This document shows positions 2,961 through 45,838 of a stretch of DNA of 64,000 bases, piece by piece. The translations under genes and the position numbers were made by a program. A model generated the notes under the pieces. The model did not search any database, had not been told where the DNA came from, and saw nothing but the letters and a program-made list of their open reading frames with translations. Position 1 is the stretch's first letter. Each line of letters opens with the position of its first letter. The DNA comes from Candidatus Vogelbacteria bacterium RIFOXYD1_FULL_51_18 (GTDB lineage: Bacteria; Patescibacteriota; Minisyncoccia; Phycocordibacterales; UBA9988): positions 1,881-65,880 of the forward strand of contig MHTL01000014.1 of NCBI GenBank assembly GCA_001823095.1, given 5' to 3'.

Positions 2961-3022
2961 ATAGAAATACTAACAGAAAAGGCTTTTTTTGTCTTGCCGT
3001 ATATGCTACAGTTACCGTACCT

Positions 3023-3556
3023 ATGCATCTGCGCACGAAAAGGGTCGCAGGGTTCACGCTCATTGAACTCCTTGTTGTTATCGGCATTATCGGCATCCTC
3101 TCGAGCATTGTGCTTGCCTCTCTCCAAACCTCGCGCAAAAAAGCCCTTGATGCGGCGGTGCAGGAGCAATTAGTGGCTATGCGGTCGGCGGTGGAATTGT
3201 ATGCCTTAGACCACAATGGTCTATATACATCGCTTACAGTATTACCATTATTTACTGGAGTAATGGATGAAGACTGCGATGCTGTTAATGCAGAAACTAG
3301 CAATTGGTATGCAAATGATTCTGTGATAGAGCCAATGATAGCTAAAATCAATGAGGCGTCTGGACGAGTAATATGCGCGGCGAATAATACGTATACTAAA
3401 TGGGCAGTTTCTGCACGCTTACCCACAAGTCCGATGTCCCCATCCGCTAATTTGAAATGGTGGTGTGTAGATGGCTATGGGACTTCAAAACAATTCATAG
3501 GGGCGATTCCTATTAATGGAGGATTCCCGTCTTACTACGACGCAAAATGCGAATAG
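3023..3556 (+). CDS. type IV pilin / pseudopilin (prepilin N-terminal cleavage-methylation domain)
   Basis: Leader MHLRTKRVAG followed by FTLIELLVVIGIIGIL (class III signal), and a C-terminal Cys pair (WWCVDG...AKCE). Confidence 0.8.
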   Translation: MHLRTKRVAGFTLIELLVVIGIIGILSSIVLASLQTSRKKALDAAVQEQLVAMRSAVELYALDHNGLYTSLTVLPLFTGVMDEDCDAVNAETSNWYANDSVIEPMIAKINEASGRVICAANNTYTKWAVSARLPTSPMSPSANLKWWCVDGYGTSKQFIGAIPINGGFPSYYDAKCE

Positions 3557-3634
3557 ATATGCACAGGGAGCATTGTGCCTAGCAAAAGCCAGCGCTATGA
3601 TAAAAGCGTTATTTGCTCGCTTAATGTAGATACT

Positions 3635-4171
3635 ATGAAATTCTCTCGGCAAGGGTTTACCCTCATTGAACTCCTTGTTGTTATCGGCATTATCGGCATC
3701 CTCTCGAGCATTGTGTTAGTCTCACTTCAGACCTCGCGCAAAAAAGCCCTTGATGCGGCGGTGATACAGGAGATGAACAGTGTACGATCAGCGGTAGAGC
3801 TGTATGCTTCTATTCATAATGATAAGTATGCCGATGGGACGGCAAACCCTCCCCTAAATGGTTTTTCTAATGATGTAAGCTGTGATCTTGCTTCTCCACT
3901 TACCCCTACCAATGGTTGGTATGGGAATGATCCATCAGTAGCAAAGATATTGTCTAGTTTAAAGTCAAGGACGTCTTACATCTCCTGCGCTTTAAATTAT
4001 GGATATACACAATGGGCGGCAGTTTCCAAACTTCCTTCAGGCCCAACTTCAGGAGCTGGGCAGATTTGGCGATGTGTTGATTGGAAAGGAACGTCAAAAC
4101 AATATACTCAACCGACCCCACCAATGACATCTACTGGCATTTCGCGGATTACAACAGTCAACTGTCTCTAG
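3635..4171 (+). CDS. type IV pilin / pseudopilin, paralog of the upstream gene
   Basis: MKFSRQG|FTLIELLVVIGIIGILSSIVL. About 103 nt of the 5' coding sequence is near-identical to 3058-3160. The C-terminal domain is divergent with a Cys pair (RCVDW...VNCL). Confidence 0.8.
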   Translation: MKFSRQGFTLIELLVVIGIIGILSSIVLVSLQTSRKKALDAAVIQEMNSVRSAVELYASIHNDKYADGTANPPLNGFSNDVSCDLASPLTPTNGWYGNDPSVAKILSSLKSRTSYISCALNYGYTQWAAVSKLPSGPTSGAGQIWRCVDWKGTSKQYTQPTPPMTSTGISRITTVNCL

Positions 4172-25838: not shown

Positions 25839-27069
<1,231 letters not shown>

Positions 27070-27131
27070 GCAAAAAGAAAGACCACGCTGGCGAGCCATG
27101 GTGGTCAGTTGCTTTAAAGGGAGATAGAACG

Positions 27132-27341
27132 CTACCAATCAAAATGGTAACCTATTATCCCAAAAAGTATCCCAAAAAAGGCAGTAGGTATACTAACCCA
27201 CAAAGTAGCTCCGAGCCAATCCACCGTCCCTCCAACTTCGAGGATTTGTACCAAAGGAAAGGCACATGCGATCATTACAGTGATCGCTACCGGAATGCCA
27301 AAAGCAAACCCCTTCCCAATCCTACCCCATCTGTTTAGCAT
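27132..27341 (-). CDS. hypothetical small two-TM membrane protein
   Basis: Two hydrophobic helices; no recognised family. Confidence 0.35.
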   Translation of the reverse strand: MLNRWGRIGKGFAFGIPVAITVMIACAFPLVQILEVGGTVDWLGATLWVSIPTAFFGILFGIIGYHFDW

Positions 27342-27441
27342 CGCATCCTCCTCTCAAAGTCCTTTTCACTAGGCGGCGCCTAGGTTTCTGTCTAATAGAC
27401 AGTATAGCATACTGACTATTAAAAGTCAAGTTTTTTTGCAT

Positions 27442-27475
27442 GTACTAATTTATTCACGATCGTGAATAAATTAGT
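27442..27475. repeat. 34-nt perfect palindrome tactaatttatTCACGATCGTGAataaattagta (TCACGATCGTGA-core hairpin family)
   Basis: Exact self-complementarity; lies about 100 nt upstream of the start of the minus-strand gene at 27341. Confidence 0.8.
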
Positions 27476-27836
27476 ATGTTTGTGGGTGATAAAGAACCCC
27501 GTCTAATCTGCTAAAGCAGACGGACGGGGCGAGATGTTAGGTTACTCGAAGTGACTGGAGTCCGACTTCAGTCAATCAGAGCGGTACTTTTTGGCCGGTG
27601 GCCGATGAGCATCTTGCTCTTGGTAATATATGCGCTTGCAGAGGGCGCATGAGTTGATTTCGTTCATGAGCGCTCTCCGTTTGTCAAAATCCACTTCTCC
27701 TGCGGCAAGTTGCTTGATGACTTCTCTTTTTATACATCGATGCACCGTGCTCTGTGTGTTAGATATAGCCGGCACGCTGTCCACCTCCCTTCTTTTTTTA
27801 ATGTAGCACAGAGAAGCTCTGTGGTAAAATAAAAAC

Positions 27837-29102
27837 ATGCGTATACGGAACTTTTATGAACTAGGGAAGACACAGGCGCGACGCGACGCGCTCTCCATCC
27901 TTGAAGCGGGCTACAATGCCATAGACACGCGCACCGTGCTTAAAAAAAAGATTACGAATGATGGCTCTACACTCTGCCTTGATGGTGAAAATTATATCTG
28001 TGCCGAATATGACCGCATCTTTGTCATCGCCATTGGCAAATGCGCCCTTGAGGGCGCAGAGGCGCTAGAAGATATTTTAGGCGATACCATCACCGACGGC
28101 ATTGTCCTGGACTTGCGCGTGGGGCCCTTAAAAAAACTGCGCTCCTACGCAGGCACACACCCCTATCCCAGCGAAATAAATGTGAGCGTCTCGCGCGAAG
28201 TGGTCAAGCTCCTGCGCGGCGTCACCGAGCGCGACCTGGTGCTGGTGCTCATCTCCGGCGGCGGCTCCTCACTCCTTTGTTTGCCTTTTGACATTTCTTG
28301 CGAGGCCTTAGCCGAGCTGACCAAAGAGCTTACGCATAAAGGCGTCGATATCTATGAGCTTAACACGGTGCGCAAACATCTCTCCGAGATCCAGGGCGGC
28401 CACCTCGCGCGCCTTGCATACCCCGCGCATGTCGTCTCGCTCATTTTCTCCGACGTGCCGGGCAACGATATCTCCGTCATTGCATCCGGCCCCACTGTGC
28501 TGGACAAGAGCAGTGCGGACGACGCGCGCGCCGTGCTCACGAAGTACGCTATCAAGGGCGTGGAGCGCCTTTCCGAGACCCCCAAGGACCCTAAGTACTT
28601 TGAGCGCGTGCACAATACGCTCATCCTCACCAATCACGATGCGCTCCTTGCTATGAAGGCCTGCGCCGAGTCCCGGGGCTATAACAGCAAGGTGCTTACG
28701 GAAGATTTGCGTGGCGAGGCGCGCGAGGTGGGCAAGAAGCTCGCAGAGCTCGCGCTCCCATACCGCGCGTGCGCGATTGCCGGCGGCGAGACTACCGTGC
28801 ACATAGCAAACGATGCGGGCTATGGCGGCAGGAACATGGAGGTGGTGCTCGCGGCGTTGCCGCACCTAGACGAGCACAGCGTCATTATTGCGGCGGCGAG
28901 CGACGGCTGGGACAACACCGATATTGCCGGCGCCATCGGCGATAAAAATTTTTTTACGCTCGCAGTGGATAAAAACCTTGATGTGCGGACGCATCTGCGA
29001 GACAATACATCATACAACTTCTTCAGCGCGCTTGGCGCGGGGATCATGACGGGGAGGCTCGGGAGCAATGTATCTGATTTATTCATCGTTCTTAGGGTGT
29101 AA
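27837..29102 (+). CDS. glycerate 2-kinase (MOFRL family)
   Basis: DUF4147 N-domain with LISGGGSSLL and a C-terminal MOFRL domain (GGETTV...). Confidence 0.85.
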   Translation: MRIRNFYELGKTQARRDALSILEAGYNAIDTRTVLKKKITNDGSTLCLDGENYICAEYDRIFVIAIGKCALEGAEALEDILGDTITDGIVLDLRVGPLKKLRSYAGTHPYPSEINVSVSREVVKLLRGVTERDLVLVLISGGGSSLLCLPFDISCEALAELTKELTHKGVDIYELNTVRKHLSEIQGGHLARLAYPAHVVSLIFSDVPGNDISVIASGPTVLDKSSADDARAVLTKYAIKGVERLSETPKDPKYFERVHNTLILTNHDALLAMKACAESRGYNSKVLTEDLRGEAREVGKKLAELALPYRACAIAGGETTVHIANDAGYGGRNMEVVLAALPHLDEHSVIIAAASDGWDNTDIAGAIGDKNFFTLAVDKNLDVRTHLRDNTSYNFFSALGAGIMTGRLGSNVSDLFIVLRV

Positions 29103-37503: not shown

Positions 37504-37980
37504 TTATTTGCGTGTGTAAGTGCCCATGAGCTCGCCGTAGGCGCGGATGTGCCCGCTCATGGCGGTAATGAGCTCATCTTTGCCTGCTCCTGCAGGGAGG
37601 GCAAGCTCGCTATCCAGCGCGTAGGCTTTGAAAAAGTAGCGATGCGTGCCGAAGGGTGGGCAGGGGCCATGGTACATCCGCGTGCCGTCTGAGCTCTCGC
37701 CCGAGACTCCCATGGGCTCCTCGCCCTCCCGAATGACGACGGTAGTCTCTGTGTGTGCGGGAATGTTCCACTTGAGCCAATGCACCCAGCCACCGGCCGC
37801 CGCCGCATCAGGGTCATTCACAATGAGCGCAAGTGTTATGGCTCCTGCGGGGATGTCGCTAATCTCAAGCGGTGGATGTTTGTCCGCCCCATCGCAGGTG
37901 AACTGCACGGGGATTGTCCCGCCTGCCCTGAAGGCGGAGCTCATGATCGTGAGCGCGGGATAGTTTATGTTTTCCGTCAT
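37504..37980 (-). CDS. YbhB/YbcL-family phosphatidylethanolamine-binding protein (PEBP)
   Basis: PPLEISDIPAGAITLALIVNDPDAAAAGGWVHW...HRYFFKAYALD is the bacterial PEBP signature. Confidence 0.8.
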   Translation of the reverse strand: MTENINYPALTIMSSAFRAGGTIPVQFTCDGADKHPPLEISDIPAGAITLALIVNDPDAAAAGGWVHWLKWNIPAHTETTVVIREGEEPMGVSGESSDGTRMYHGPCPPFGTHRYFFKAYALDSELALPAGAGKDELITAMSGHIRAYGELMGTYTRK

Positions 37981-37986
37981 AGCGGT

Positions 37987-38661
37987 CTAACTCAAATCTT
38001 TCTTCCTTTCCTCAAATTCTTTTTTATCAATCTCACCTTTAGCATACCGTTTCTGCAAAATTTCAAGCGCGGATTTTTCGTGATTGTGCGTGCCGCGCGA
38101 TTGATTCGTAAGCCATTTGATAAGCGCGACAATACCCGCGATTATCAATACCCACCAGAGGATCATAAAAATCCAGCCGAACGAGCCAAAAGGCCCAGAT
38201 CCAAAATTCATCATACTCCCTCCCCACATCATATTCATCATCGGCATCCAGCCGCCGCTTATGGCCGGAAATGATGCTGATGTATCGCAACCAGAAAGAC
38301 GTTTACCCATGACGATGTGAATCTGCTCTTCGCCGTCTTCGCCATGCGCCTGAATCATCATGGCGTTCATGGCGGCATGGGACTCTCCAGCCATTTGTCC
38401 CATAAAATACTCGCCGAGAACTCCAAACTGCTCATCGCTTAAATTCTCGCAAGCGATTTCTTTTGCTTGCAGTGTATCCCAAAGCCCTTTGCCTTCCTGT
38501 TCTTCACGGGCGGTATGTTCAACGACCTCGTTCCAATCAACTGTCGTATTGGAGAGATTACCCATCCCTTCAACACCGTTCAGGACAGGCATTTGAGCAT
38601 CTACCGAACCGTCAACAAGTATTGACCCAAAAATGAAAGCCGTGATTAAAAGTTTTTTCAT
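37987..38661 (-). CDS. secreted/membrane Met-rich protein with C-terminal SHOCT domain
   Basis: Signal peptide MKKLLITAFIFGSILV, a Met-rich segment GGWMPMMNMMWGGSMMNFG, a TM helix, and a C-terminal LEILQKRYAKGEIDKKEFEERKKDL SHOCT-like motif. Confidence 0.6.
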   Translation of the reverse strand: MKKLLITAFIFGSILVDGSVDAQMPVLNGVEGMGNLSNTTVDWNEVVEHTAREEQEGKGLWDTLQAKEIACENLSDEQFGVLGEYFMGQMAGESHAAMNAMMIQAHGEDGEEQIHIVMGKRLSGCDTSASFPAISGGWMPMMNMMWGGSMMNFGSGPFGSFGWIFMILWWVLIIAGIVALIKWLTNQSRGTHNHEKSALEILQKRYAKGEIDKKEFEERKKDLS

Positions 38662-38683
38662 ACAGTCGTATTTTAGCTTATTC

Positions 38684-39067
38684 TTATTGTTTAGAAAAGA
38701 CGAAATACGAAAGATACCCAAGGAGTCCGAGTTGAATCGTAGGCGTTAAGCCGACGGAGAGAATTGGGATTATGGGCATATACTCATTATACGCCCATCT
38801 TCCCGTGTTGAGAGCGTACAATTCAATACATATCGAAATCAAGACGCCAATCGGAATAATGAGCCAGCTTCTTTTTCTGAGACTGGCGACCAGTACAAAG
38901 GGTAGAGTCAATAGGATAATAATAATCGCATCAGCGATAGAAGCTCGCAACAGAATAGTCTCGGTTATCTCTCCGCCCATATAAACGATATAAAAATAGG
39001 AATGTAAATTTTCCCAAATTAGATTAAGAAAAAATGACAAAATAAAAATTAAAGATACTTTTTTCAT
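38684..39067 (-). CDS. hypothetical multi-TM membrane protein (very AT-rich gene)
   Basis: Four predicted hydrophobic helices; composition is markedly AT-richer than the backbone. Confidence 0.5.
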   Translation of the reverse strand: MKKVSLIFILSFFLNLIWENLHSYFYIVYMGGEITETILLRASIADAIIIILLTLPFVLVASLRKRSWLIIPIGVLISICIELYALNTGRWAYNEYMPIIPILSVGLTPTIQLGLLGYLSYFVFSKQ

Positions 39068-39201
39068 ACTGTTTATTTTTCCGCATGAGCGGTATGCTCC
39101 TTAAAACGTTTCCTAAGATCGGTGGTTGATCCAAAATAAAGTTGCGAATCTTTTTTACTTTTCAAAATACATGTGTAGTTCATAGAATTTGGTGTGGGGG
39201 T

Positions 39202-40104
39202 TTATTTTTGTTCCCAGGGACTATTCAAAGACTCTTCTCCAATCTTCCACACGCCCTTTTCCAAGAAAGCCTCGATGGTCTGGCGGGTGGCCTTGTTGAT
39301 AAGATTTGAGTGAGAAAATTTGTTGCTCTTTGCATAGTCGGAAAGCAGAACAATCTTTTTGCTCTCTAAATATGCCAAACGCTTGTGATAACTATTGGTA
39401 AGAGCCTTACCAATAATCTCTTCCATAATTTCGGTTGCCCCCTTTTCATCAAACTCCCTGAAAGCGTCGTAGTATTTCTTCTGGTCGATAAACTTGATGT
39501 TTATCGGCACAAAGCCTTCCCGTATGAGGAGATAGTTGTTGATGACGCGCCCAATGCGGCCATTCCCGTCCATGAATGGGTGGAGATATTCAAACGCCAG
39601 ATGAAGCCGCGCGATGCGCTTGATGATATTTTCATGACTTGTCGCATTGTATTCCGCAAACATCTTCTCAAGACTCCCGTTGATTTCTTTTGGAGCAGGA
39701 GCAATATAACTGCCGACACGAACATACTCGTCATCCTTGCGAAATCGTCCGGCAACTTCATCACGAATATTTGACAGGAGCATCTTGTGGAGTGACAAGA
39801 TAACCTCAAAGCCGAGCTCCTGCTCTTTAGCCCGCTTGTTTATGTACGACACGACTCGGGCAAGATTTTTTGCTTCGAATATTTCTCGTTCAGAAATATA
39901 CCGGTCCAGATCAATCTGGAGAAGTATCTTTTCCGTTTCCTCAAGAGAGAGAGTACTGTTCTCGATAGCGTTTGAGTTGTATACCTGATCTGCGATTTCC
40001 GCTTCGCTTATAAGCTTAATAAGCGCATCTTTTCCGATGGCCGCTTTGTAATACCTTTCCCTAAACAGATTGATTTTATTAAGTGCTCTAGCTGTTTTCG
40101 CCAT
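39202..40104 (-). CDS. Fic/DOC-family protein (putative AMPylase)
   Basis: Canonical Fic motif HPFMDGNGRIGR. Confidence 0.9.
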   Translation of the reverse strand: MAKTARALNKINLFRERYYKAAIGKDALIKLISEAEIADQVYNSNAIENSTLSLEETEKILLQIDLDRYISEREIFEAKNLARVVSYINKRAKEQELGFEVILSLHKMLLSNIRDEVAGRFRKDDEYVRVGSYIAPAPKEINGSLEKMFAEYNATSHENIIKRIARLHLAFEYLHPFMDGNGRIGRVINNYLLIREGFVPINIKFIDQKKYYDAFREFDEKGATEIMEEIIGKALTNSYHKRLAYLESKKIVLLSDYAKSNKFSHSNLINKATRQTIEAFLEKGVWKIGEESLNSPWEQK

Positions 40105-40121
40105 ACGGATTAAGTATAGTC

Positions 40122-40157
40122 TTTTTCACGACTTTGTCAACTCTAATCGTGAAAAAC
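40122..40157. repeat. split variant of the TCACGA/TCGTGA hairpin: tttttcacga-[16 nt]-tcgtgaaaaa, 18 nt upstream of the Fic start
   Basis: 10-nt perfect inverted arms containing the TCACGA half-sites, separated by ctttgtcaactctaa; a further TTTCACGATTTTG half-site lies at about 40177. Confidence 0.5.
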
Positions 40158-40582
40158 TCTCTTTTTTCTTATACTTTCACGATTTTGGACATATAGCCCC
40201 TCTGCCTTTCAGCAGTATAACAAAAAGTGTCTCATATTGGCTCCGGAGTTAAAACCTTCACAAACCCCGAAGGAAAAACAAGTTCCCTACGAGGCATGCT
40301 TTTGAAATTATTCTGCCAAATCTGATACACAAATCCAAAAAGCAAAATCTGAAGTGATGCGCCCCGCCACTATTTTTCTGGGACAAAGGAGGCGGGGCTG
40401 GGCGACCTGTCCGCCGTAGCTTTAGCAAAGGCGGAGCGAACCCTCTCGTCTTCAAAATCCGAGTTCGTATCTAGTTTATTGGCTCCCACTACTGAACGAG
40501 TTTAGAACAATAGATTGGAAGGGTATAAAGCAAGAACTTGAGCTTAGCGGTATTATGACGCTACTGGGCCAGAGAGGTTTTG

Positions 40583-41026
40583 TTAGCGTCTAACCTTATC
40601 GGTTTCAAGATGGTTTTCTGTTATGGCCACAACATAGAAAGTTCGTTCTGGCTCAATATCAAAATAGAATATCCGTGCTCTTTGTTGTAGTTTTATTTCC
40701 TTGAGTTCAATGCCTTCAGCAATGCCCCTGTATAGCTTTTTGTATTCGCTATCGTATCTCATAGGTATTCGGTCCACATAGTTTCTTTGAAAATCGGCCT
40801 CGGGGCGGATTTTTGTTCCTATGGTTTTGAGAGTTTCTATGGCCCTTTTTGCTTTGTTGCCGCCGAGCTCTGAAATCTCGCACATTCTTTCGTTGTATTT
40901 TGCAAAAGAGATTACATAAGGAATTGCCTCAGGTGCTTCTGTGTCCTGAGGCAATTCTTGAGCGATTTGAGAAAGTTTGTCTATTTCATCACTTGGCTCT
41001 GTGGCTTGTTTTGGAATGTCGGTCAT
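40583..41026 (-). CDS. uncharacterised 147-aa protein, candidate toxin partner of the Panacea-domain antitoxin (weak RelE/HigB-like C-terminus)
   Basis: ATGA overlap with the upstream Panacea gene. C-terminal YRGIAEGIELKEIKLQQRARIFYFDIEPERTFYVVAITENH resembles the RelE/ParE/HigB (Gp49-like) beta-strand core; acidic N-terminal 50 aa. Confidence 0.5.
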   Translation of the reverse strand: MTDIPKQATEPSDEIDKLSQIAQELPQDTEAPEAIPYVISFAKYNERMCEISELGGNKAKRAIETLKTIGTKIRPEADFQRNYVDRIPMRYDSEYKKLYRGIAEGIELKEIKLQQRARIFYFDIEPERTFYVVAITENHLETDKVRR

Positions 41027-41526
41027 TTGTGCTTCTTGGCCTCTTCCAATTTTTCAGAGTAGTAATTTTTCATTGATTCAAGGGATATTTCGTTTTCTGA
41101 GTTTTCATAATGCTGAAGGCCCTTTCGTGCTTCTCGCCACGGCTCTTCTGAGTGCGTGAGCATTTCCAAATAACCAGCATCAAGTTTTCCGTATGCGTTC
41201 CATACGGTATCAATAAGTTCTTTTGACTTGCCCGAAATGTTAAGCGTGTCTGATTTTATCTCTTCCTGTATCGGTTCAAATCCGAACTTTTTATATAGCA
41301 CATACAAACTGCGAACTGCTGGCCCGTGCACCCACGCTTCAATCGGCTCACTGAAGAGTTTTTTGTTATTCAATACCAAAGACCAGGCCTGTGCGTAATA
41401 GACCAGTTTTTGGAGTTTTTTATTCGTTATCGGCTCTTTTTCTTGGCTGGCGAGATATAAGAAATATCGGCCTACATCCCGTGCCTTTAAGGTTTTTTGA
41501 GAGTGTAAGGCCATAGGTATTTTCAT
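41023..41526 (-). CDS. Panacea-domain (DUF4065, SocA/PanA-like) antitoxin
   Basis: NKKLQKLVYYAQAWSLVLNNKKLFSEPIEAWVHGPAVRSLYVLY matches the Panacea core, and the N-terminal DVGRYFLYL matches the family leader. Confidence 0.75.
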   Translation of the reverse strand: MKIPMALHSQKTLKARDVGRYFLYLASQEKEPITNKKLQKLVYYAQAWSLVLNNKKLFSEPIEAWVHGPAVRSLYVLYKKFGFEPIQEEIKSDTLNISGKSKELIDTVWNAYGKLDAGYLEMLTHSEEPWREARKGLQHYENSENEISLESMKNYYSEKLEEAKKHK

Positions 41527-41537
41527 AGTAGCAATTC

Positions 41538-41555
41538 TGTAAACAGTTGTAAACA
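41538..41555 (-). promoter_or_regulatory. direct-repeat operator-like element TGTTTACA-ac-TGTTTACA (minus-strand sense) upstream of the Panacea gene
   Basis: Two 8-mers at 10-bp spacing, 12 nt upstream of the proposed ATG, in an AT-rich 110-bp gap after abiEii. Confidence 0.4.
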
Positions 41556-41638
41556 GACAGGAAGATGTTGATATTTCTGGCCGAGCGTGTAAACTAAAGT
41601 AAAGTATGAAAGAAGTAATGATGGATAGACTCATAATT

Positions 41639-42931
41639 TTATTTTAACAAGTCATCAAAGTCGTGTCTGATTAGATCTTCTTTCCGAAGAACGATCTGTT
41701 CCTTCTGATTCAGGTTGTCAGCGGATACACGGATAAGTTTTGTCATCAGGGTGTCACCAACAAGTTCATAGTTAATTTTCTTCAAATAGGCCTCGATTTT
41801 TTCGTAAAATAGAGAGGCGTATTCTTTCTGCTTTTTCTCTGATGTCGGTCTACTGCTAGAACCATTTGCTGAAAACTCGATGCTGTCACTCACTACGTTG
41901 TTGATTGGAAACGAAACCTCGATGTCTTTGAAAAGAAACCAGTACTCGCTCAAGTTATATATAATGCGCACGTGGTCGCCCTCTTTCGTGCTGTACTCAA
42001 AAATGAAAGAGAACACATCAGTCCGGAAGTCCTCGAACACTCGCACTCTTTCGTATTTTGATACGGTTCTGATTTTATATTTATCGCGTAGCTGAAAGAA
42101 AGTGTCGCGCCAGTTCGCAAGCCAGTTAGTGACGAAACGAGGGTCAAGAAAGAGCGGTGAGAGGTCATTTTTGAGATTTTCTTCGCTTACGTTGTTCATT
42201 TTTACCGCAAGTTTTGTGAACAGTGTCCGATAATCTTTTGCTTCTTCCACATTCTTTGCTTTGAGATAGTCAAGGTCGGGTACGATTTTCTTACTCATGT
42301 ACCAAAGTAAATCGTAGATGTCGCGCCCTTTTTCTTCATACACCGCCTCGCCGACGCCACGCGTTCCGCGAAGGAAAATTGCAGCGATTTTGCTCGCCAT
42401 AAGAGAAGAGAGGTTGTATGTCCGGATTACGAATGACAACTGTCCATGATTCTGCGGTATTCTTTCCGTAACAACGCCGCCGGGCGGTGCAAACTGATTA
42501 CAATCAACTTTCACATGAATCCATTCGGAAGCGTAGCCCTCAATCAAACTGCCAGCTCGGAATTTAAGCGTTATGCCTCGATTGTTCGTGATAGAGATTT
42601 TCAAAAATTCCGCGTCAACTCCATAGACTTTTGCGAAATGCTTTTCTGCCTCTTCTTTGAATTCGTTGAGAAAGTCGCTGTCAACCTTGTGGCTTACCTC
42701 AAAATCCAAATCAACGGACATTCGGTCGAGGTCATAGCAGATGCGAAGCGCTGAGCCGCCATACATTATCCATTTGTTATATTCCGGATGATGATAAGTG
42801 AAATCGAGGACATAGAACTGCAACTCCTCTTTAAGAACGTTGAGGCGCGTCTCGGGATCGGAAATGCTAACGCCATAGGTCGAAAGGCCATCAAGTTTGC
42901 TTTTCAGGACTGTTAGTATCTGATCACTCAT
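41639..42931 (-). CDS. abiEii: AbiEii/AbiGii-family nucleotidyltransferase toxin (DUF1814)
   Basis: IMYGGSALRICYDLDRMSVDLDFEVS matches the AbiEii NTase motif (GGTAL...R.SEDLDF); 430 aa. Confidence 0.85.
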   Translation of the reverse strand: MSDQILTVLKSKLDGLSTYGVSISDPETRLNVLKEELQFYVLDFTYHHPEYNKWIMYGGSALRICYDLDRMSVDLDFEVSHKVDSDFLNEFKEEAEKHFAKVYGVDAEFLKISITNNRGITLKFRAGSLIEGYASEWIHVKVDCNQFAPPGGVVTERIPQNHGQLSFVIRTYNLSSLMASKIAAIFLRGTRGVGEAVYEEKGRDIYDLLWYMSKKIVPDLDYLKAKNVEEAKDYRTLFTKLAVKMNNVSEENLKNDLSPLFLDPRFVTNWLANWRDTFFQLRDKYKIRTVSKYERVRVFEDFRTDVFSFIFEYSTKEGDHVRIIYNLSEYWFLFKDIEVSFPINNVVSDSIEFSANGSSSRPTSEKKQKEYASLFYEKIEAYLKKINYELVGDTLMTKLIRVSADNLNQKEQIVLRKEDLIRHDFDDLLK

Positions 42932-43541
42932 GGAGATATGTTTTTACTTTTTCATAAAATTTCTTCCGCTCCTCCTCGTCCATCTCATCAATATCTATCC
43001 GCAATTCTTTTACCATCTTTGTAATATCTTCAAACCGGACGCTTCGAAACTGATGCGTTCTGAAGTACAGCAAGTCGAATAGTGCTTTTGATGGAGAAGC
43101 AATAAAAAAATCAAATTTTCCTTTCACAAGAGAGTAATCCGAAAAGAGATTCTTATTGATTGACTGGTATGAAAAAGTCCCCGCCTTCGTTTCATAATCC
43201 CGTGTGATTTTCGGTGTAACCGACGTGATAGAGCGTATCGCTTCAGTGGCGAGATTATAATACTGGAGCGCAGTCCACGAGCTTACGTAGGAAGGCGTAC
43301 GGAGAATGTTTGCAAGGTAGAAAGAATACGAGATATCGCTTTTATTATCTGCAAAAAAATCGGCGGTAATATACAAGCCATTTTTCAGCGGCAAAATCTC
43401 TTTGCGCTTCAAAAAACGGCTGATGTATGTATTTACCGTACTATTTTTCAGCCCCAACTGACTACCAAGCTGGTATACTGTACTTTTGGTGAAATGGGGC
43501 AAACTATTAAGCTGTTCCAACAGATTTTTCTTGCTTTTCAT
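42924..43541 (-). CDS. abiEi: AbiEi-family antitoxin/transcriptional regulator (wHTH N-domain)
   Basis: N-terminal wHTH (TVYQLGSQLGLKNSTVNTYISRFLKRKEILPLKNGLYI); 8-nt overlap with abiEii. Confidence 0.8.
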   Translation of the reverse strand: MKSKKNLLEQLNSLPHFTKSTVYQLGSQLGLKNSTVNTYISRFLKRKEILPLKNGLYITADFFADNKSDISYSFYLANILRTPSYVSSWTALQYYNLATEAIRSITSVTPKITRDYETKAGTFSYQSINKNLFSDYSLVKGKFDFFIASPSKALFDLLYFRTHQFRSVRFEDITKMVKELRIDIDEMDEEERKKFYEKVKTYLHE

Positions 43542-44061
43542 AACTATGACAATAGTGTATCATATATGAAATGAGCAGTCAAAAGCTCATATAGCCCGCC
43601 CCGCCTTTTTGCCACCCCATTCCAATTCAAATCCCCCCCGCGAAAAAAATAAGAATGGAGAAGGGGCAAAAGGCGAGGGCGGAACGCCGAGGCTCTGCGA
43701 GGCGTTGGGCGGAATGGTTAGAGTCACCACAGAGTCCGAGCGTACGATTCAATCAGAAGCCACCACGCACGCGGAGCGTGCGATTAGTCATCAGTCGGAT
43801 TATTGCGAAAATATGTTCGAACTTTTTCTAACAAACACAGCAAACTTAGATACCCTTCGGAATTTTTGGAACCGAGGGGCGCGCTTCGCGCGCTGTATGG
43901 AAAATCGGCGAGGAGGGCAAAGGATTTTTTCGGAGTGGCAAAAAGCGCGCTTCGCGCGCAGGTGGGGGTTCCATGATGAGTACATCATTCAAAACAAAGT
44001 TTTGCGAGCCGACGGGCGGCAATTTCAAAGCGATTGAGAGCATAGCTTTCCCTTTTTCTAT

Positions 44062-45435
44062 ATGAATAAATTCTTTCTCTACGCGCGAAAATCTACCGAC
44101 GAGCCGGACAGGCAGATTTTGTCTATCGAAGCGCAGATACACGAGTTGAAAGAATTTGCAGAGCGAGAGCATTTGGAGATCGTGGACACTTTTATCGAGT
44201 CGCAAACGGCGAAGGAGCCGGGGCGACCTATTTTTAATCAAATGCTCTCGCTTATTGAAAAAGGGAAAGCCAATGGAGTTGTGGCGTGGCACCCAGATCG
44301 TCTCGCGCGCAACAGCGTTGATGGTGGGCGTATTATCTACCTTATTGACATCGCTAAGGTGGTTGCGCTCAAATTTCCGACTTTTTGGTTTGAACCCACG
44401 CCACAAGGCAAATTTATGCTCTCAATCGCTTTCGGGCAGAGCAAATACTATGTTGATAATCTTTCAGAGAATGTGAAGCGCGGTTTGCGACAGAAAGTGC
44501 GCCGTGGCGAGCAAAGCGGACAAGCGCCGACCGGATATTTGAATGATAAAGCGAATCGTGTGATCGTACCCGATCCGGCGCGCTTTAAGTTTGTCCGCGA
44601 ATTGTTCGAAGCATACGCCACGGGTTCACATTCTCTGAAAGAAACTGGGAATTTGCTCTCTGCCCGAGGCTTGGTTAGTCGGAACGGCAATGTGCTTACC
44701 ATTTCGAATATTCAAATGATTTTGCGTAATCCGTTTTACTACGGGGCGTTTAAGTTCAATGGCGAGGAGTATCAAGGTAAGCACAAGCCAGCGATAACAA
44801 AGAAACTTTTTGATCAGTGCCAAGCGGTGATGGCGCGAAAAGCGCACCCCACTAAGCGAGGCGAGCAAAAGCATATTCTTCGCGGAGTTTTTTCGTGCGC
44901 AGAGTGCGGTTGCGGTATCACAAGCGAAGTGCAGAAAGGTCATGTGTATTATCGGTGCACGAAAAAGAAAGGTATCTGCGCACAACCCTATGTCCGCGAA
45001 GAGTTGCTCGCCTCGCAAATCACCGAGTATCTGCAAAAAGTTTCTTTGTCTTCGGCGTGGGCAAATGAGATGCTTGCTCTCTTGGAGAAGGAGCAAGCAG
45101 AAACTACCCACGCCGATGCCGATTTCGTTCAAAATCTAAAGCTCAAAATTAAGGAGTGCGAGGAGAAGCTTGACCGGCTTCTTGACGCGCATCTTGAGCA
45201 AACGCTATCGAGCGAAGAATATGTCGCCAAGAAGCGCGTTCTCCTCGACTCTAAAATTGATTTTGAGCAGAAGTTGAAGGATTTTGAGCGAAACGGCAAT
45301 CATTGGCTCGAACCGGCCCGACAATTCGTTTTAGCGGCTCAACAAGCCAAAATTATCGCTTTGCAAGAAAATCCCGTCGCGGGACGGGATTTTCTCAAAA
45401 GAATTGGCTCGAACCACGTCGACAATTCGTTTTAG
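44062..45435 (+). CDS. large serine recombinase (resolvase catalytic domain + recombinase domain + zinc ribbon); C-terminus apparently frameshifted by a 101-bp tandem duplication
   Basis: Catalytic YARKSTDEPDRQILSIEAQ (Ser nucleophile) and a zinc ribbon CAECGCG...YYRC. The alternate frame 45303-45644 re-encodes the same peptide and continues to the tRNA. Confidence 0.9.
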   Translation: MNKFFLYARKSTDEPDRQILSIEAQIHELKEFAEREHLEIVDTFIESQTAKEPGRPIFNQMLSLIEKGKANGVVAWHPDRLARNSVDGGRIIYLIDIAKVVALKFPTFWFEPTPQGKFMLSIAFGQSKYYVDNLSENVKRGLRQKVRRGEQSGQAPTGYLNDKANRVIVPDPARFKFVRELFEAYATGSHSLKETGNLLSARGLVSRNGNVLTISNIQMILRNPFYYGAFKFNGEEYQGKHKPAITKKLFDQCQAVMARKAHPTKRGEQKHILRGVFSCAECGCGITSEVQKGHVYYRCTKKKGICAQPYVREELLASQITEYLQKVSLSSAWANEMLALLEKEQAETTHADADFVQNLKLKIKECEEKLDRLLDAHLEQTLSSEEYVAKKRVLLDSKIDFEQKLKDFERNGNHWLEPARQFVLAAQQAKIIALQENPVAGRDFLKRIGSNHVDNSF

Positions 45436-45520
45436 CGGCTCAACAAGCCAAAATTATCGCTTTGCAAGAAAATCCCGTCGCGGGACGGGATTTTCTCAAA
45501 AGAATTGGCTCGAACCACGT
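45302..45520. repeat. 101-bp tandem direct repeat, 2 full copies plus a 17-nt third copy, each starting ATTGGCTCGAACC
   Basis: Units at 45302-45402 and 45403-45503 are identical apart from a 6-nt patch (ggcccg vs acgtcg); partial unit at 45504-45520. Confidence 0.9.
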
Positions 45521-45629
45521 TTTGCGCTCGCAAGCGATTTGCTTTGAACCTAAAAAGTCGTGGAAAATTCTTGCCGATTTGCCCGCCGAGGGGCGAAGCC
45601 CCGAGGCGGAGAACTCGTATCATCCTATT

Positions 45630-45705
45630 TGGCTCCGCGGCTAGGGCTCGAACCTAGGACATCCTCGTTAACAGCGAGGCGCTCTACCAACTGAGCTACC
45701 GCGGA
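45630..45705 (-). tRNA. tRNA-Asn (anticodon GTT), CCA encoded
   Basis: Reverse complement reads TCCGCGG-TA-GCTC-AGTTGGT-AGAGC-G-CCTCG-CTGTTAA-CGAGG-ATGTC-CTAGG-TTCGAGC-CCTAG-CCGCGGA-G-CCA, a clean cloverleaf. Confidence 0.85.
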
Positions 45706-45756
45706 ATATATTTTTCCGCGGTAGCTCAGTACTGAGCCCTGCCTGTCGGCAGGCAG
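45690..45756. repeat. inverted copy of the first 16 nt of tRNA-Asn (TCCGCGGTAGCTCAGT) 9 nt beyond the tRNA 5' end, followed by a ctgcctg/caggcag hairpin
   Basis: 45690-45705 (tRNA 5' end, minus) and 45715-45730 (plus) are exact reverse complements. Confidence 0.7.
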
Positions 45757-45838
45757 ATACCGCAGAATATCGTTCTTAAAGAACCGAACTAAATGGTATC
45801 AAATTTCTCTAATTCGCGCGAATAAGCGAATAGTATAT

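What the first reader, a model, noticed from the sequence alone, without database searches (positions are those of the whole stretch)
37987..45705. AT-rich accessory island next to tRNA-Asn carrying stacked defence/toxin modules and a large serine recombinase
From about 38.0 kb to the tRNA at 45.63 kb the base composition is visibly AT-richer than the flanking housekeeping DNA. All genes there are accessory. They are a Met-rich SHOCT protein, an AT-rich membrane protein, Fic (HPFMDGNGRIGR), a Panacea antitoxin plus partner, an AbiEi/AbiEii pair, and a large serine recombinase that reads toward the 3' end of tRNA-Asn(GTT). This is the architecture of an integrated defence island. The left boundary is not marked by a direct repeat, as expected for serine-recombinase att sites, and may lie anywhere between 37.98 and 39.2 kb.
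Basis: partly seen in the sequence, partly recalled or inferred. Interest (0 to 1): 0.65.

Follow-up and report, generated by a model that had tools for sequence, protein, structure and literature searches.

The report
Mosaic serine-recombinase defence island at tRNA-Asn
Next to a tRNA-Asn gene in a Candidatus Vogelbacteria genome lies a real, AT-rich foreign island; its right 5.15 kb is an integrative element driven by a large serine recombinase, with all four attachment-site junctions recoverable, and it belongs to a very large, apparently undescribed family of defence-gene carriers in CPR bacteria.

Summary
GC is 0.44 in the island and 0.55 in both flanks, with sharp edges. Every gene call was confirmed: SHOCT, a membrane protein, Fic, Panacea with a RelE-fold partner, AbiEi/AbiEii, a large serine recombinase (LSR) and tRNA-Asn.

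The interpretation needs three corrections.

1. The LSR element covers only 40,479-45,636. It does have a left attachment site: attL reads P'|GGAGCCA|B at 40.48 kb, and attR reads tRNA|GGAGCCA|rcX. The matching attB-type junction (tRNA|B) occurs in a co-occurring strain. The predicted attP junction (P'|rcX) occurs in a metagenome contig.

2. The left 2.5 kb is separate accretion. It holds a Fic gene-plus-promoter module that also occurs alone in Nomurabacteria, and a SHOCT/membrane gene pair.

3. The element is a mosaic. The recombinase body belongs to a tRNA-Gln clade, while its last ~85 codons and both att sites are tRNA-Asn type. In this assembly alone, a 101-bp tandem duplication frameshifts the gene to 457 aa instead of 493.

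The LSR belongs to a Patescibacteria-wide family. Its ORF runs through the P arm into the antisense tRNA 3' end. Most members also carry an intact inverted attP copy upstream of the gene, and their cargo is mostly restriction-modification and other defence genes.

The parts
45630..45705 (-). tRNA-Asn (GTT), the integration target. Its 3' end ...GGAGCCA faces the island.
   Evidence: ARAGORN; Rfam RF00005, 69.7 bits.
45629..45636 (+). attR core TTGGCTCC, i.e. the tRNA 3' end GGAGCCAA. It is identical to the attL core.
   Evidence: (D17).
45505..45636 (+). P arm, called 'X' here: the last ~125 nt of the ancestral LSR ORF, from the GSN codons (TTGGCTC|GAACC) to the tRNA end. In relatives it is repeated as an inverted copy upstream of the gene.
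   Evidence: It is 97-98% identical to the tails of L108 and L020.
45303..45504 (+). Two tandem 101-bp copies, each starting TTGGCTCGAACC. The second shifts the frame, so the LSR ends at 45,435 (457 aa).
   Evidence: TRF score 410; sequence; single copy in all other assemblies.
45366..45395 (.). 30-nt perfect palindrome (13-bp stem) inside the coding sequence. A duplicate lies at 45,467-45,496. The hairpin is conserved across the family through compensatory changes.
   Evidence: I1; 71 loci.
44062..45435 (+). Large serine recombinase: 457 aa here, 493 aa in single-copy relatives, where it ends at window-equivalent position 45,644 inside the tRNA. The body (aa 1-400) belongs to the tRNA-Gln clade. 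From about 45,262 onward the tail is tRNA-Asn type.
   Evidence: Pfam; alignment; sliding identity; neighbour-joining tree.
43634..43971 (+). Degenerate internal attP-like region of tRNA-Gln type. The Y/Q/P'-like part spans 43,634-43,877 and IR-L spans 43,878-43,971. The inner end ...GGGGGTTC at 43,971 is also the breakpoint of variant L006.
   Evidence: Homology to L022/L023 upstream regions and, on the reverse complement, to the L107 LSR tail (80% over 94 nt); L006 junction.
42924..43541 (-). AbiEi antitoxin/regulator (205 aa). It overlaps AbiEii by 8 nt.
   Evidence: PADLOC AbiEi, 1e-37.
41639..42931 (-). AbiEii nucleotidyltransferase toxin (430 aa).
   Evidence: Pfam PF08843, 1.5e-23; PADLOC 2e-29.
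41631..41632 (.). Recurrent mosaic junction between the AbiE/LSR block and the left-end module. L002 and L013 both diverge here.
41023..41514 (-). Panacea (SocA-like) antitoxin, 163 aa (203 aa from an upstream ATG).
   Evidence: Pfam PF13274, 1e-20; NCBIfam SocA_antitoxin 1e-17, below the cut-off.
40583..41026 (-). 147-aa partner with a predicted RelE/HigB/YoeB-like toxin fold. It overlaps the Panacea gene by 4 nt.
   Evidence: No Pfam, PADLOC or NCBIfam hit. AF2 pLDDT 86. Foldseek top hits are RelE, RelE2, HigB2, HigB and YoeB, with probability 0.9-1.0 and E-values 6e-3 to 0.1.
40487..40595 (+). P' arm plus the adjoining conserved end ('Y') of the element.
   Evidence: 96.6% identical over 117 nt to the attP-bearing contig L109. 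The motif GTTC..TCGTTCAG..GGAGCC is shared with the family's P' arms.
40479..40486 (+). attL core TTGGCTCC, an 8-bp direct repeat of the tRNA 3' end.
40237..40478 (+). B arm with a GC hairpin, i.e. the former tRNA-Asn downstream region. It also holds a second degenerate core remnant, CCGGAGCCAA (on the - strand), at 40,237-40,246.
   Evidence: 88.7% identical to the sequence directly after the tRNA in L002. 80% identical to the distal site of L108.
39202..40186 (-). Fic gene plus its own promoter. It is a self-contained 985-bp module outside the LSR element. It carries the motifs HPFMDGNGRIGR and SNAIEN (inhibitory-helix type).
   Evidence: Pfam; PADLOC PDC-S04/SoFic 4e-33. 84% nt identity to a solo copy between yceG and mnmA in Nomurabacteria.
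37987..39067 (-). SHOCT-domain Met/His-rich membrane protein (37,987-38,661/38,721) and a 127-aa polytopic membrane protein (38,684-39,067). Both are AT-rich, of unknown origin, and show no defence signature.
   Evidence: Pfam SHOCT 9e-8; no PADLOC or NCBIfam hits; GC 0.46 and 0.37.

Best explanation
The AT-rich block is a composite island built up at the 3' end of tRNA-Asn in a Candidatus Vogelbacteria chromosome.

Its right-hand 5.15 kb (40,479-45,636) is an integrative element of the large-serine-recombinase type. A circular form carrying attP (P'-GGAGCCA-rcX) recombined with attB (tRNA-GGAGCCA-B) at the tRNA's terminal CCA region. The last 8 nt of the tRNA are restored. The recombinase gene ends up reading through the P arm into the antisense tRNA. 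The displaced tRNA-downstream sequence now lies 5.15 kb away as attL.

The cargo is two toxin-antitoxin/abortive-infection pairs: a Panacea antitoxin with a RelE-fold toxin, and AbiEi/AbiEii. These presumably protect against phage and stabilise the element. That role is inferred, not shown.

The element is a recombinational mosaic with three parts:
- an Asn-type left-end module (40,479-41,631);
- a block from a tRNA-Gln-type element (41,632 to about 45,262), comprising AbiE, a fossil internal attP and the LSR body;
- an Asn-type tail.

Because the recombinase body and the flanking att sites are of different types, and because the ORF is truncated in this assembly, the copy in the window is probably no longer mobile with its own enzyme. 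This too is inferred.

The left 2.5 kb (Fic module, SHOCT/membrane pair) is older or independent accretion next to the same hot spot.
For: - GC and GC3 discontinuity.
- Domain identities.
- All four junction types are found, with shared arms: attR and attL in the window; tRNA|B in strain L002, which has the same backbone on both sides at 96-99.95%; and the predicted attP string, found exactly once in JGI metagenomes (L109).
- The P' arm is homologous across the family.
- The same three-site layout occurs in 22 of 31 relatives with enough flank.
- 56 of 67 relatives have a tRNA or tmRNA overlapping the LSR stop. The C-termini ...WLRGQDSN are antisense tRNA.
- The population carries alternative occupants at the same tRNA end: a type III-like MTase, an R-M-like/RmuC module, and a second LSR lineage.
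- Mosaic origin: the body groups with the Gln clade, at 81.5% to L107 against 61-64% to the Asn clade. IR-L is 80% identical to the reverse complement of the L107 tail. The tail is 97-98% identical to a Giovannonibacteria LSR whose body is only ~65-70% identical.
- The Fic module occurs solo in Nomurabacteria.
- The att-delimited cargo of relatives is mostly R-M, GmrSD, SNF2 and similar defence genes.
Against: - No excised circle or truly empty site (tRNA|B directly followed by Fic) was recovered for this species.
- L109 ends 10 nt before the point that would tell a free attP from the internal attP copy found in canonical integrated elements.
- L002 is not empty. It carries another, LSR-less insert between tRNA|B1 and P'|B2.
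- The B arm is 43/45 identical between Vogelbacteria and a Giovannonibacteria locus. That is odd for plain chromosomal DNA; it may itself be an old element remnant.
- Recombinase activity, site specificity, and the defence or toxin functions are all untested.
- The 101-bp duplication may be an assembly artefact.
Confidence: 0.75

Rival explanations
1. The whole 7.6 kb (37,987-45,629) is one LSR-mobilised element whose left att site is simply too degenerate to see.
For: The low-GC block is continuous from 37,987 to the tRNA. All population contigs that reach the left side carry SHOCT, the membrane protein and Fic.
Against: - A well-formed attL with family-type P' and B arms lies at 40,479-40,595.
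- No core or arm-like sequence occurs at 37.9-39.2 kb.
- The Fic module is independently mobile.
- L002 keeps the left part while lacking the LSR and AbiE.
Confidence: 0.08
2. The LSR cassette is a resident, self-inverting or 'docking' module rather than the integrase of the neighbouring cargo. On this view the cargo differences among strains arise only by homologous recombination at a hot spot.
For: - Most relatives have 75-160-bp near-perfect inverted repeats bracketing the LSR gene (58 of 80).
- Solo cassettes with no cargo exist (L107).
- Both orientations relative to the tRNA occur: L027, L044, L046 and L093 against the majority.
- The mosaic junctions at 41,631 and about 45,270 are not att sites.
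Against: - Distal attL-type sites with the correct core delimit the cargo in 22 of 31 relatives.
- The four-junction set in and around this species is the signature of attP x attB recombination.
- The two views are not mutually exclusive.
Confidence: 0.14
3. It is a decayed prophage or phage satellite.
For: LSRs are common phage integrases. The L109 relative encodes a weak match to a rolling-circle Rep protein (Phage_CRI, 1.4e-5).
Against: - There are no structural, packaging or lysis genes in the island.
- The LSR is below 30% identity to phage LSRs.
- Only 2 relatives were found in 2.9 million IMG/VR contigs, against at least 588 in species-representative genomes.
Confidence: 0.02
4. It is an assembly or binning artefact, i.e. 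a chimeric contig.
For: The 101-bp duplication is unique to this assembly. Many population contigs break inside the island.
Against: More than 20 independent assemblies from ENA, JGI and NCBI carry the same joints on both sides at 99.8-100% identity.
Confidence: 0.01

Closest known systems
Integrative elements driven by large serine recombinases: SCCmec (CcrAB), phage integrases such as SPbeta SprA, Bxb1 and A118, Anabaena XisF
   Same: It has the Resolvase, Recombinase and Zn-ribbon architecture with an N-terminal Ser nucleophile. The best NCBIfam matches are CcrB (2e-32) and XisF (2e-25). The best PDB match is SPbeta SprA/YokA (3e-9). It shows attP x attB logic with hybrid attL and attR and no long direct repeats. 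Like SCCmec, it inserts at the extreme 3' end of a housekeeping gene without inactivating it.
   Different: - All matches fall far below the family cut-offs, and identity to phage LSRs is below 30%.
- The target is a tRNA or tmRNA 3' end, which from my own knowledge is the usual territory of tyrosine integrases.
- The recombinase ORF itself runs across the P arm and crossover into the tRNA.
- Canonical family members keep a second, intact, inverted attP copy upstream of the gene.
tRNA-anchored genomic or defence islands with tyrosine integrases (P4-like and similar)
   Same: It lies adjacent to a tRNA 3' end and restores the tRNA end. It is compositionally foreign, accretes in tandem or mosaic fashion, carries defence/TA cargo, and varies between strains.
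   Different: The recombinase is a serine enzyme, not a tyrosine enzyme. The repeat is only 8 bp. The host is a CPR bacterium with a small genome.
AbiE (AbiEi/AbiEii) type IV toxin-antitoxin / abortive infection system
   Same: It is a two-gene overlapping operon with an AbiEi regulator/antitoxin and an AbiEii nucleotidyltransferase.
   Different: AbiEii here is 430 aa, with a ~160-aa C-terminal extension beyond the Pfam domain. Function is untested.
Panacea-domain (PanA/SocA) antitoxin systems
   Same: A Panacea-domain protein sits directly upstream of, and translationally coupled to, a small toxin-like protein.
   Different: The partner matches no sequence family. Only its predicted fold points to RelE/HigB/YoeB. 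The SocA equivalog score is far below the cut-off (64 against 190).
Fic/SoFic and the PADLOC candidate PDC-S04
   Same: It has the Fic domain with HPFx[D/E]GNGR and an N-terminal [S/T]xxxE[G/N] inhibitory motif (SNAIEN). PADLOC gives PDC-S04 at 4e-33 and SoFic at 4e-29.
   Different: It is below the NCBIfam equivalog cut-offs, stands alone, and lies outside the LSR element.

Membership tests
Large serine recombinase (serine integrase) | N-terminal resolvase catalytic domain with the Ser nucleophile | tested here: met
   PF00239, 1.7e-23, residues 5-150. The R9-K10-S11-T12-D13 motif is invariant in a 16-sequence alignment.
Large serine recombinase (serine integrase) | Recombinase domain plus a zinc-ribbon domain with four Cys | tested here: met
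   PF07508 at 3.4e-15 and PF13408 at 4.5e-8. C279, C282, C299 and C306 are invariant.
Large serine recombinase (serine integrase) | attP/attB sites of about 40-50 bp with imperfect dyad symmetry around a short crossover core, giving hybrid attL and attR after integration | tested here: met
   All four junction types are found with exchanged arms. By my reading of the sequences, the reconstructed attP has the dyad AACTCGT-N27-ACGAGTT and attB has GTTCG-N31-CGAAC, both centred on GAGCC. The exact crossover dinucleotide within TTGGCTCC is not resolved.
Large serine recombinase (serine integrase) | Catalytic activity, and directionality controlled by a recombination directionality factor | not testable with these tools
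   No RDF candidate was identified. Activity needs an assay.
tRNA-associated genomic island | Adjacent to a tRNA 3' end, compositionally distinct, encodes a recombinase, flanked by a repeat of the tRNA end, and variably present among strains | tested here: met
   Strain variants appear.
AbiE system | Adjacent AbiEi (wHTH antitoxin/regulator) and AbiEii (DUF1814 nucleotidyltransferase) genes | tested here: met
   PADLOC AbiEi 1e-37 and AbiEii 2e-29. The genes overlap by 8 nt.
AbiE system | Toxicity, its neutralisation, and phage abortive infection | not testable with these tools
Panacea (PanA) toxin-antitoxin | Panacea-domain antitoxin | tested here: met
   PF13274, 1e-20, above the gathering score.
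Panacea (PanA) toxin-antitoxin | Adjacent cognate toxin | tested here: inconclusive
   The 147-aa partner has no sequence-family hit. AF2 pLDDT is 86. Foldseek gives RelE/HigB/YoeB-type toxins at probability 0.9-1.0, but with E-values of only 5e-3 to 0.1 and target-normalised TM of 0.45-0.67.
Fic (AMPylase) family | Active-site motif HxFx(D/E)GNGRxxR | tested here: met
   HPFMDGNGRIGR in the translation. PF02661, 3.6e-22.
Fic (AMPylase) family | Inhibitory helix motif [S/T]xxxE[G/N] | tested here: met
   SNAIEN near residue 44 of the translation (read directly). The class assignment rests on my own knowledge.

The most novel reading that the evidence does not exclude
The recombinase belongs to a CPR-wide, apparently undescribed class of serine-integrase elements with three unusual properties.

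(a) The attP P arm is the coding sequence for the enzyme's own C-terminal tail, and the ORF reads across the crossover into a tRNA or tmRNA.

(b) A second, intact, inverted attP copy (about 130-260 bp of near-perfect repeat) brackets the recombinase gene. The element can therefore integrate, or flip, in either orientation relative to the tRNA.

(c) Swapping the ~250-bp tail/att module moves a recombinase lineage to a different tRNA locus. The window's LSR is a Gln-clade body sitting at tRNA-Asn; L034 is the reverse case.

If these features are functional, this would be a natural, modular platform for capturing and exchanging defence genes in bacteria that largely lack CRISPR.
Probability: 0.3. 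Interest if true: 0.8.

Novelty: new variant of a known kind. Interest (0 to 1): 0.55.

Why it matters
CPR/Patescibacteria have tiny genomes and are reported to be largely devoid of CRISPR-Cas (title of PMC4742961, listed). How they acquire and exchange defence genes is poorly described.

This locus gives a fully specified integration system: enzyme, attB, attP, attL and attR. The system sits at one tRNA and has relatives at 588 or more loci among one-genome-per-species representative genomes, mostly Patescibacteria. The cargo of those relatives is mostly R-M, GmrSD, SNF2, Abi and TA systems.

For recombinase engineering, the family offers many orthologous serine integrases with readily predictable att sites, because the tRNA end and the enzyme's own 3' coding sequence define them. 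It also offers natural examples of body/tail-site reshuffling.

The particular copy in the window is ordinary in function, and probably decaying.

Tried and rejected
There are none. The four exact hits in the window lie in the LSR tail and the tRNA T-arm.
- Tried to find an empty site in sister species. The best non-self PEBP hit is 58% identical and many hits are archaeal. The right-flank DUF218 homologues (64-69%) sit in unrelated contexts. Synteny is not conserved, so this route failed.
- Tested whether the window's upstream region is an inverted copy of its own LSR tail, as in relatives. The score was no better than shuffled sequence. It matches a Gln-type tail instead.
- Considered the 12-nt R1/R2 repeat (TTGGCTCGAACC) as the crossover site and the duplication as LSR-mediated unequal exchange. 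The hybrid junction has no shared dinucleotide, so this is not supported.
- Considered the coding-region palindrome as an intrinsic terminator. Neither strand has a T-run after it.
- A sequence search of the 147-aa family against the PDB found nothing meaningful.
- Looked for both orientation isomers within one population (P0039). Only one arrangement was recovered.
- Literature searches for serine recombinases in CPR/Patescibacteria found nothing relevant. One search failed on syntax.
- The prophage idea was rejected.

Full report
**1. Observation**

The base-composition break is real and sharp. GC is 0.440 over 37,987-45,629, against 0.546 for the left flank and 0.547 for the right. Island 1-kb windows range 0.40-0.49, while 109 background windows average 0.546 (sd 0.029). 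GC3 of island genes is 0.37-0.53, against 0.59-0.73 for the neighbours.

ARAGORN and Rfam place tRNA-Asn(GTT) at 45,630-45,705 on the minus strand, with its 3' end facing the island.

- SHOCT (9e-8), Fic (4e-22), Panacea (1e-20) and AbiEii (1.5e-23), all from Pfam.
- A large serine recombinase (LSR) with Resolvase, Recombinase and Zn-ribbon domains.
- The 205-aa protein is AbiEi (PADLOC 1e-37).
- The 147-aa Panacea partner matches no sequence family. A confident AF2 model (pLDDT 86) resembles RelE/HigB/YoeB toxins; the support is weak but consistent.

SHOCT and the 127-aa membrane protein show no defence signature.

**2. Organism and population**

Exact-protein look-ups identify the source as Candidatus Vogelbacteria (Parcubacteria/Patescibacteria) from Rifle groundwater. 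The 457-aa recombinase is OHA60391.1, on a 66.8-kb contig.

More than 20 independent assemblies of the same population share both flanks at 99.8-100% identity, so the island is not an assembly artefact.

The same contigs show that the DNA next to the tRNA varies between strains:
- L002 replaces the LSR and AbiE with HTH, a 305-aa protein, an N6/N4 MTase, RmuC and a DprA-like protein. It diverges at window position 41,631.
- L013 has the AbiE-LSR block at only 97% identity, with an MTase on its left. It also diverges at 41,631.
- L018 has a type III-like MTase directly after the tRNA.
- L020 carries a different LSR lineage, about 70% identical at the nucleotide level.
- L006 diverges at 43,971.
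- L001 joins the same island to a different tRNA-Asn(GTT) sequence and a different right flank.

These variants are documented. Every variant diverges immediately after ...GGAGCCA, the tRNA's CCA end.

**3. Attachment sites**

An imperfect 22-nt direct repeat of the tRNA end plus its downstream sequence lies at 40,465-40,486. On the plus strand, 7 of the window's 9 TTGGCTC motifs fall between 40,237 and 45,635.

Read in tRNA orientation, the sites are:
- attR: tRNA | GGAGCCA | AATAGGATGATACGAGTTC... (rcX).
- attL: ...CTAAACTCGTTCAGTAGTG | GGAGCCA | ATAAACTAGATACGAACTC... (P' | B).

Strain L002 has tRNA | GGAGCCA | AGAAACTAGATACGAACTC..., which is the attB-type combination.

I predicted the attP string from attR-left plus attL-right and searched JGI metagenomes for it. 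It occurs exactly once, in Ga0155676_103 (L109). There, 117 nt of the window's P' side (96.6% identity) are joined through GGAGCCA to rcX.

Finding all four arm combinations is the signature of attP x attB site-specific recombination. It defines a 5.15-kb element spanning 40,479-45,636.

There are two caveats. L109 ends 10 nt before the point that would distinguish a free attP from an internal attP copy (section 4). No truly empty site was recovered.

**4. The recombinase family**

The single-copy 493-aa LSR has thousands of homologues at 50-93% identity, nearly all in CPR bacteria. Among one-genome-per-species representative genomes there are at least 588 loci. By contrast, only 2 relatives occur in IMG/VR, and identity to phage LSRs is below 30%.

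In 56 of 67 loci with enough downstream DNA, a tRNA or tmRNA on the opposite strand overlaps the LSR stop codon. The targets are Gln, Asn, Ser, Trp, Leu, Ala, His and tmRNA. The C-termini ...WLRGQDSNLR are antisense translations of tRNA 3' halves.

In 58 of 80 loci, the last 75-160 nt of the gene recur as a near-perfect inverted copy 100-250 nt upstream of the start codon. This stretch runs from the invariant GSN codons (GGCTC|GAACC) to the first ~8 nt of the tRNA.

The sequence just outside that upstream copy is the conserved P' arm. The upstream copy is therefore an intact attP in inverted orientation.

In 22 of 31 loci with enough upstream DNA, a distal site lies 1.2-9 kb further out. It has the form B - core - P'.

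The canonical layout is therefore: B-O-[P']-cargo-[inverted attP]-LSR-[X]-O-tRNA.

A minority isomer has the tRNA on the LSR's strand, 200-270 nt upstream of the LSR start (L027, L044, L046, L093). This is what integration through the second attP, or inversion of the LSR segment, would produce. That reading is an inference.

The 69 ORFs in the att-delimited cargo of relatives are dominated by type I, II and III R-M, GmrSD, SNF2/ResIII and Schlafen-AlbA2 genes. Solo cassettes without cargo also exist (L107).

A perfect 11-14-bp hairpin lies in the coding region just upstream of the GSN codons. It is conserved through compensatory changes and its function is unexplained.

**5. The window's copy is a mosaic**

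- A neighbour-joining tree of residues 1-400 puts the window's LSR inside the tRNA-Gln clade: 81.5% identity to L107, which abuts tRNA-Gln, against 61-64% to Asn-associated LSRs.
- The window's fossil upstream repeat (43,878-43,971) matches the reverse complement of the L107 tail at 80% identity. It does not match the window's own tail.
- From about 45,262 onward, the gene is 97-98% identical to the tails of L020 and of a Giovannonibacteria LSR (L108) whose bodies are only ~65-70% identical.
- attL and attR are Asn type.

From these points, a Gln-type block (AbiEii, AbiEi, internal attP, LSR body; 41,632 to about 45,262) has replaced the interior of an Asn-type element. The element's left-end module (P', the TA slot and its promoter; 40,479-41,631) and its tail were kept. 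L034 shows the reverse combination.

I infer that this enzyme probably no longer matches its flanking sites.

**6. The 101-bp duplication**

Only this assembly has two copies (45,303-45,403 and 45,404-45,504). Because 101 is not a multiple of 3, the ORF ends at 45,435 (457 aa).

The hybrid junction ttggctcgaaccACGT|Cgacaa is in register. It lies 4 nt past the 12-nt identity between the two boundary repeats, which fits neither simple slippage nor LSR crossover.

Other assemblies carry 35-bp and 62-bp deletions that share the same left end in the tail (L016, L019). The 90% protein cluster contains LSR variants of 433-537 aa. The tail is therefore an indel hot spot.

Whether the duplication is real or an artefact remains undecided.

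**7. The left 2.5 kb**

The Fic gene with its promoter (39,202-40,186) is 84% identical at the nucleotide level to a solo copy between yceG and mnmA in Nomurabacteria. It is an independently transferred module.

Between Fic and attL lie the B arm, a GC hairpin and a second degenerate core (40,237-40,246). These may be traces of the former tRNA-downstream region or of older integrations.

The SHOCT/membrane gene pair is AT-rich, but no mobility signal was found for it. The left compositional edge at 37,987 carries no att-like sequence.

**8. Verdict**

The island is real. The defence/TA reading is supported for the AbiE, Panacea/RelE-like and Fic modules. The integrative-element reading is strongly supported, but only for the right 5.15 kb.

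The specific copy is a mosaic and probably immobilised. As an object it is a new member of a familiar kind.

What raises the interest is the family it reveals. It consists of CPR-wide serine-integrase elements that target tRNA ends. They have an ORF-through-att design, a duplicated inverted attP, modular tails and defence cargo. I found no description of this family in the searchable literature.

Noticed in passing
window 45,708-45,766: A 59-bp insertion lies immediately 5' of the tRNA and is absent in strain L002. It contains an inverted copy of the first 17 nt of tRNA-Asn (perfect 17-nt inverted repeat, 45,690-45,706 / 45,714-45,730) and a CCTGCC...GGCAGG hairpin. It is flanked by the near-repeat ACCGC(G/A)GAATAT.
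   Followed up: partly
L001 1,936-2,239 (window-equivalent 45,403-45,707): One assembly joins the identical island and 18 kb of left flank to a different tRNA-Asn(GTT) sequence and a different right flank (GIY-YIG, a 411-aa secreted protein). The breakpoint lies exactly at the tRNA 3' end. This could be LSR-mediated rearrangement, or a second element that carries its own tRNA.
   Followed up: partly
window 45,366-45,395 and 45,467-45,496; 71 family loci: A perfect 11-14-bp hairpin sits inside the LSR coding region about 14 nt upstream of the invariant GSN codons. It is kept by compensatory changes across lineages and is not a terminator on either strand.
   Followed up: partly
L016 and L019 (window-equivalent 45,529-45,563 and 45,529-45,590): Two NCBI assemblies carry 35-bp and 62-bp deletions in the LSR tail. 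Both begin right after ...GAACCACGTTTTGCGCT.
   Followed up: no
L002 313-445 and 4,615-4,735: A 4.3-kb module (HTH, 305-aa protein, N6/N4 MTase, RmuC, DprA-like protein) is flanked by ~125-bp inverted repeats. It is inserted into the GC hairpin of the tRNA-downstream (B) region.
   Followed up: partly
window 40,434-40,478 vs L108 3,936-3,975: The B arm next to attL is 43/45 identical between the Vogelbacteria strain L002 and a Giovannonibacteria genome, although the adjoining tRNA bodies differ. The 'chromosomal' arm may itself be a relic of a mobile element.
   Followed up: partly
window 37,504-37,980 (PEBP gene): The PEBP gene flanking the island has backbone-like GC (0.60). Its closest relatives outside the species are only 58% identical, and the few named hits at 52-55% identity are from Woesearchaeota, Nanoarchaeota, Methanolobus and Planctomycetota. 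It may itself be an old acquisition.
   Followed up: partly
window 38,147-38,217 (SHOCT gene) vs L011: One strain has a ~66-71-bp deletion in the Met-rich region of the SHOCT protein, giving 202 aa instead of 224.
   Followed up: no
window 3,001-4,000 and 27,001-28,000: Two further 1-kb low-GC patches (0.449 and 0.460) lie in otherwise 0.55-GC DNA. They may be small insertions.
   Followed up: no
L034 (tRNA-Gln locus): An LSR whose body clusters in the tRNA-Asn clade sits at a tRNA-Gln. This is the reverse of the window's body/target mismatch and suggests recurrent tail/att module swapping.
   Followed up: partly
L109 5,674-6,819: The attP-bearing metagenome contig encodes a protein with a weak match to the filamentous-phage rolling-circle Rep (Phage_CRI, 1.4e-5). 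It also encodes an N6 MTase and a PD-(D/E)XK nuclease. Some family members may replicate as episomes.
   Followed up: no
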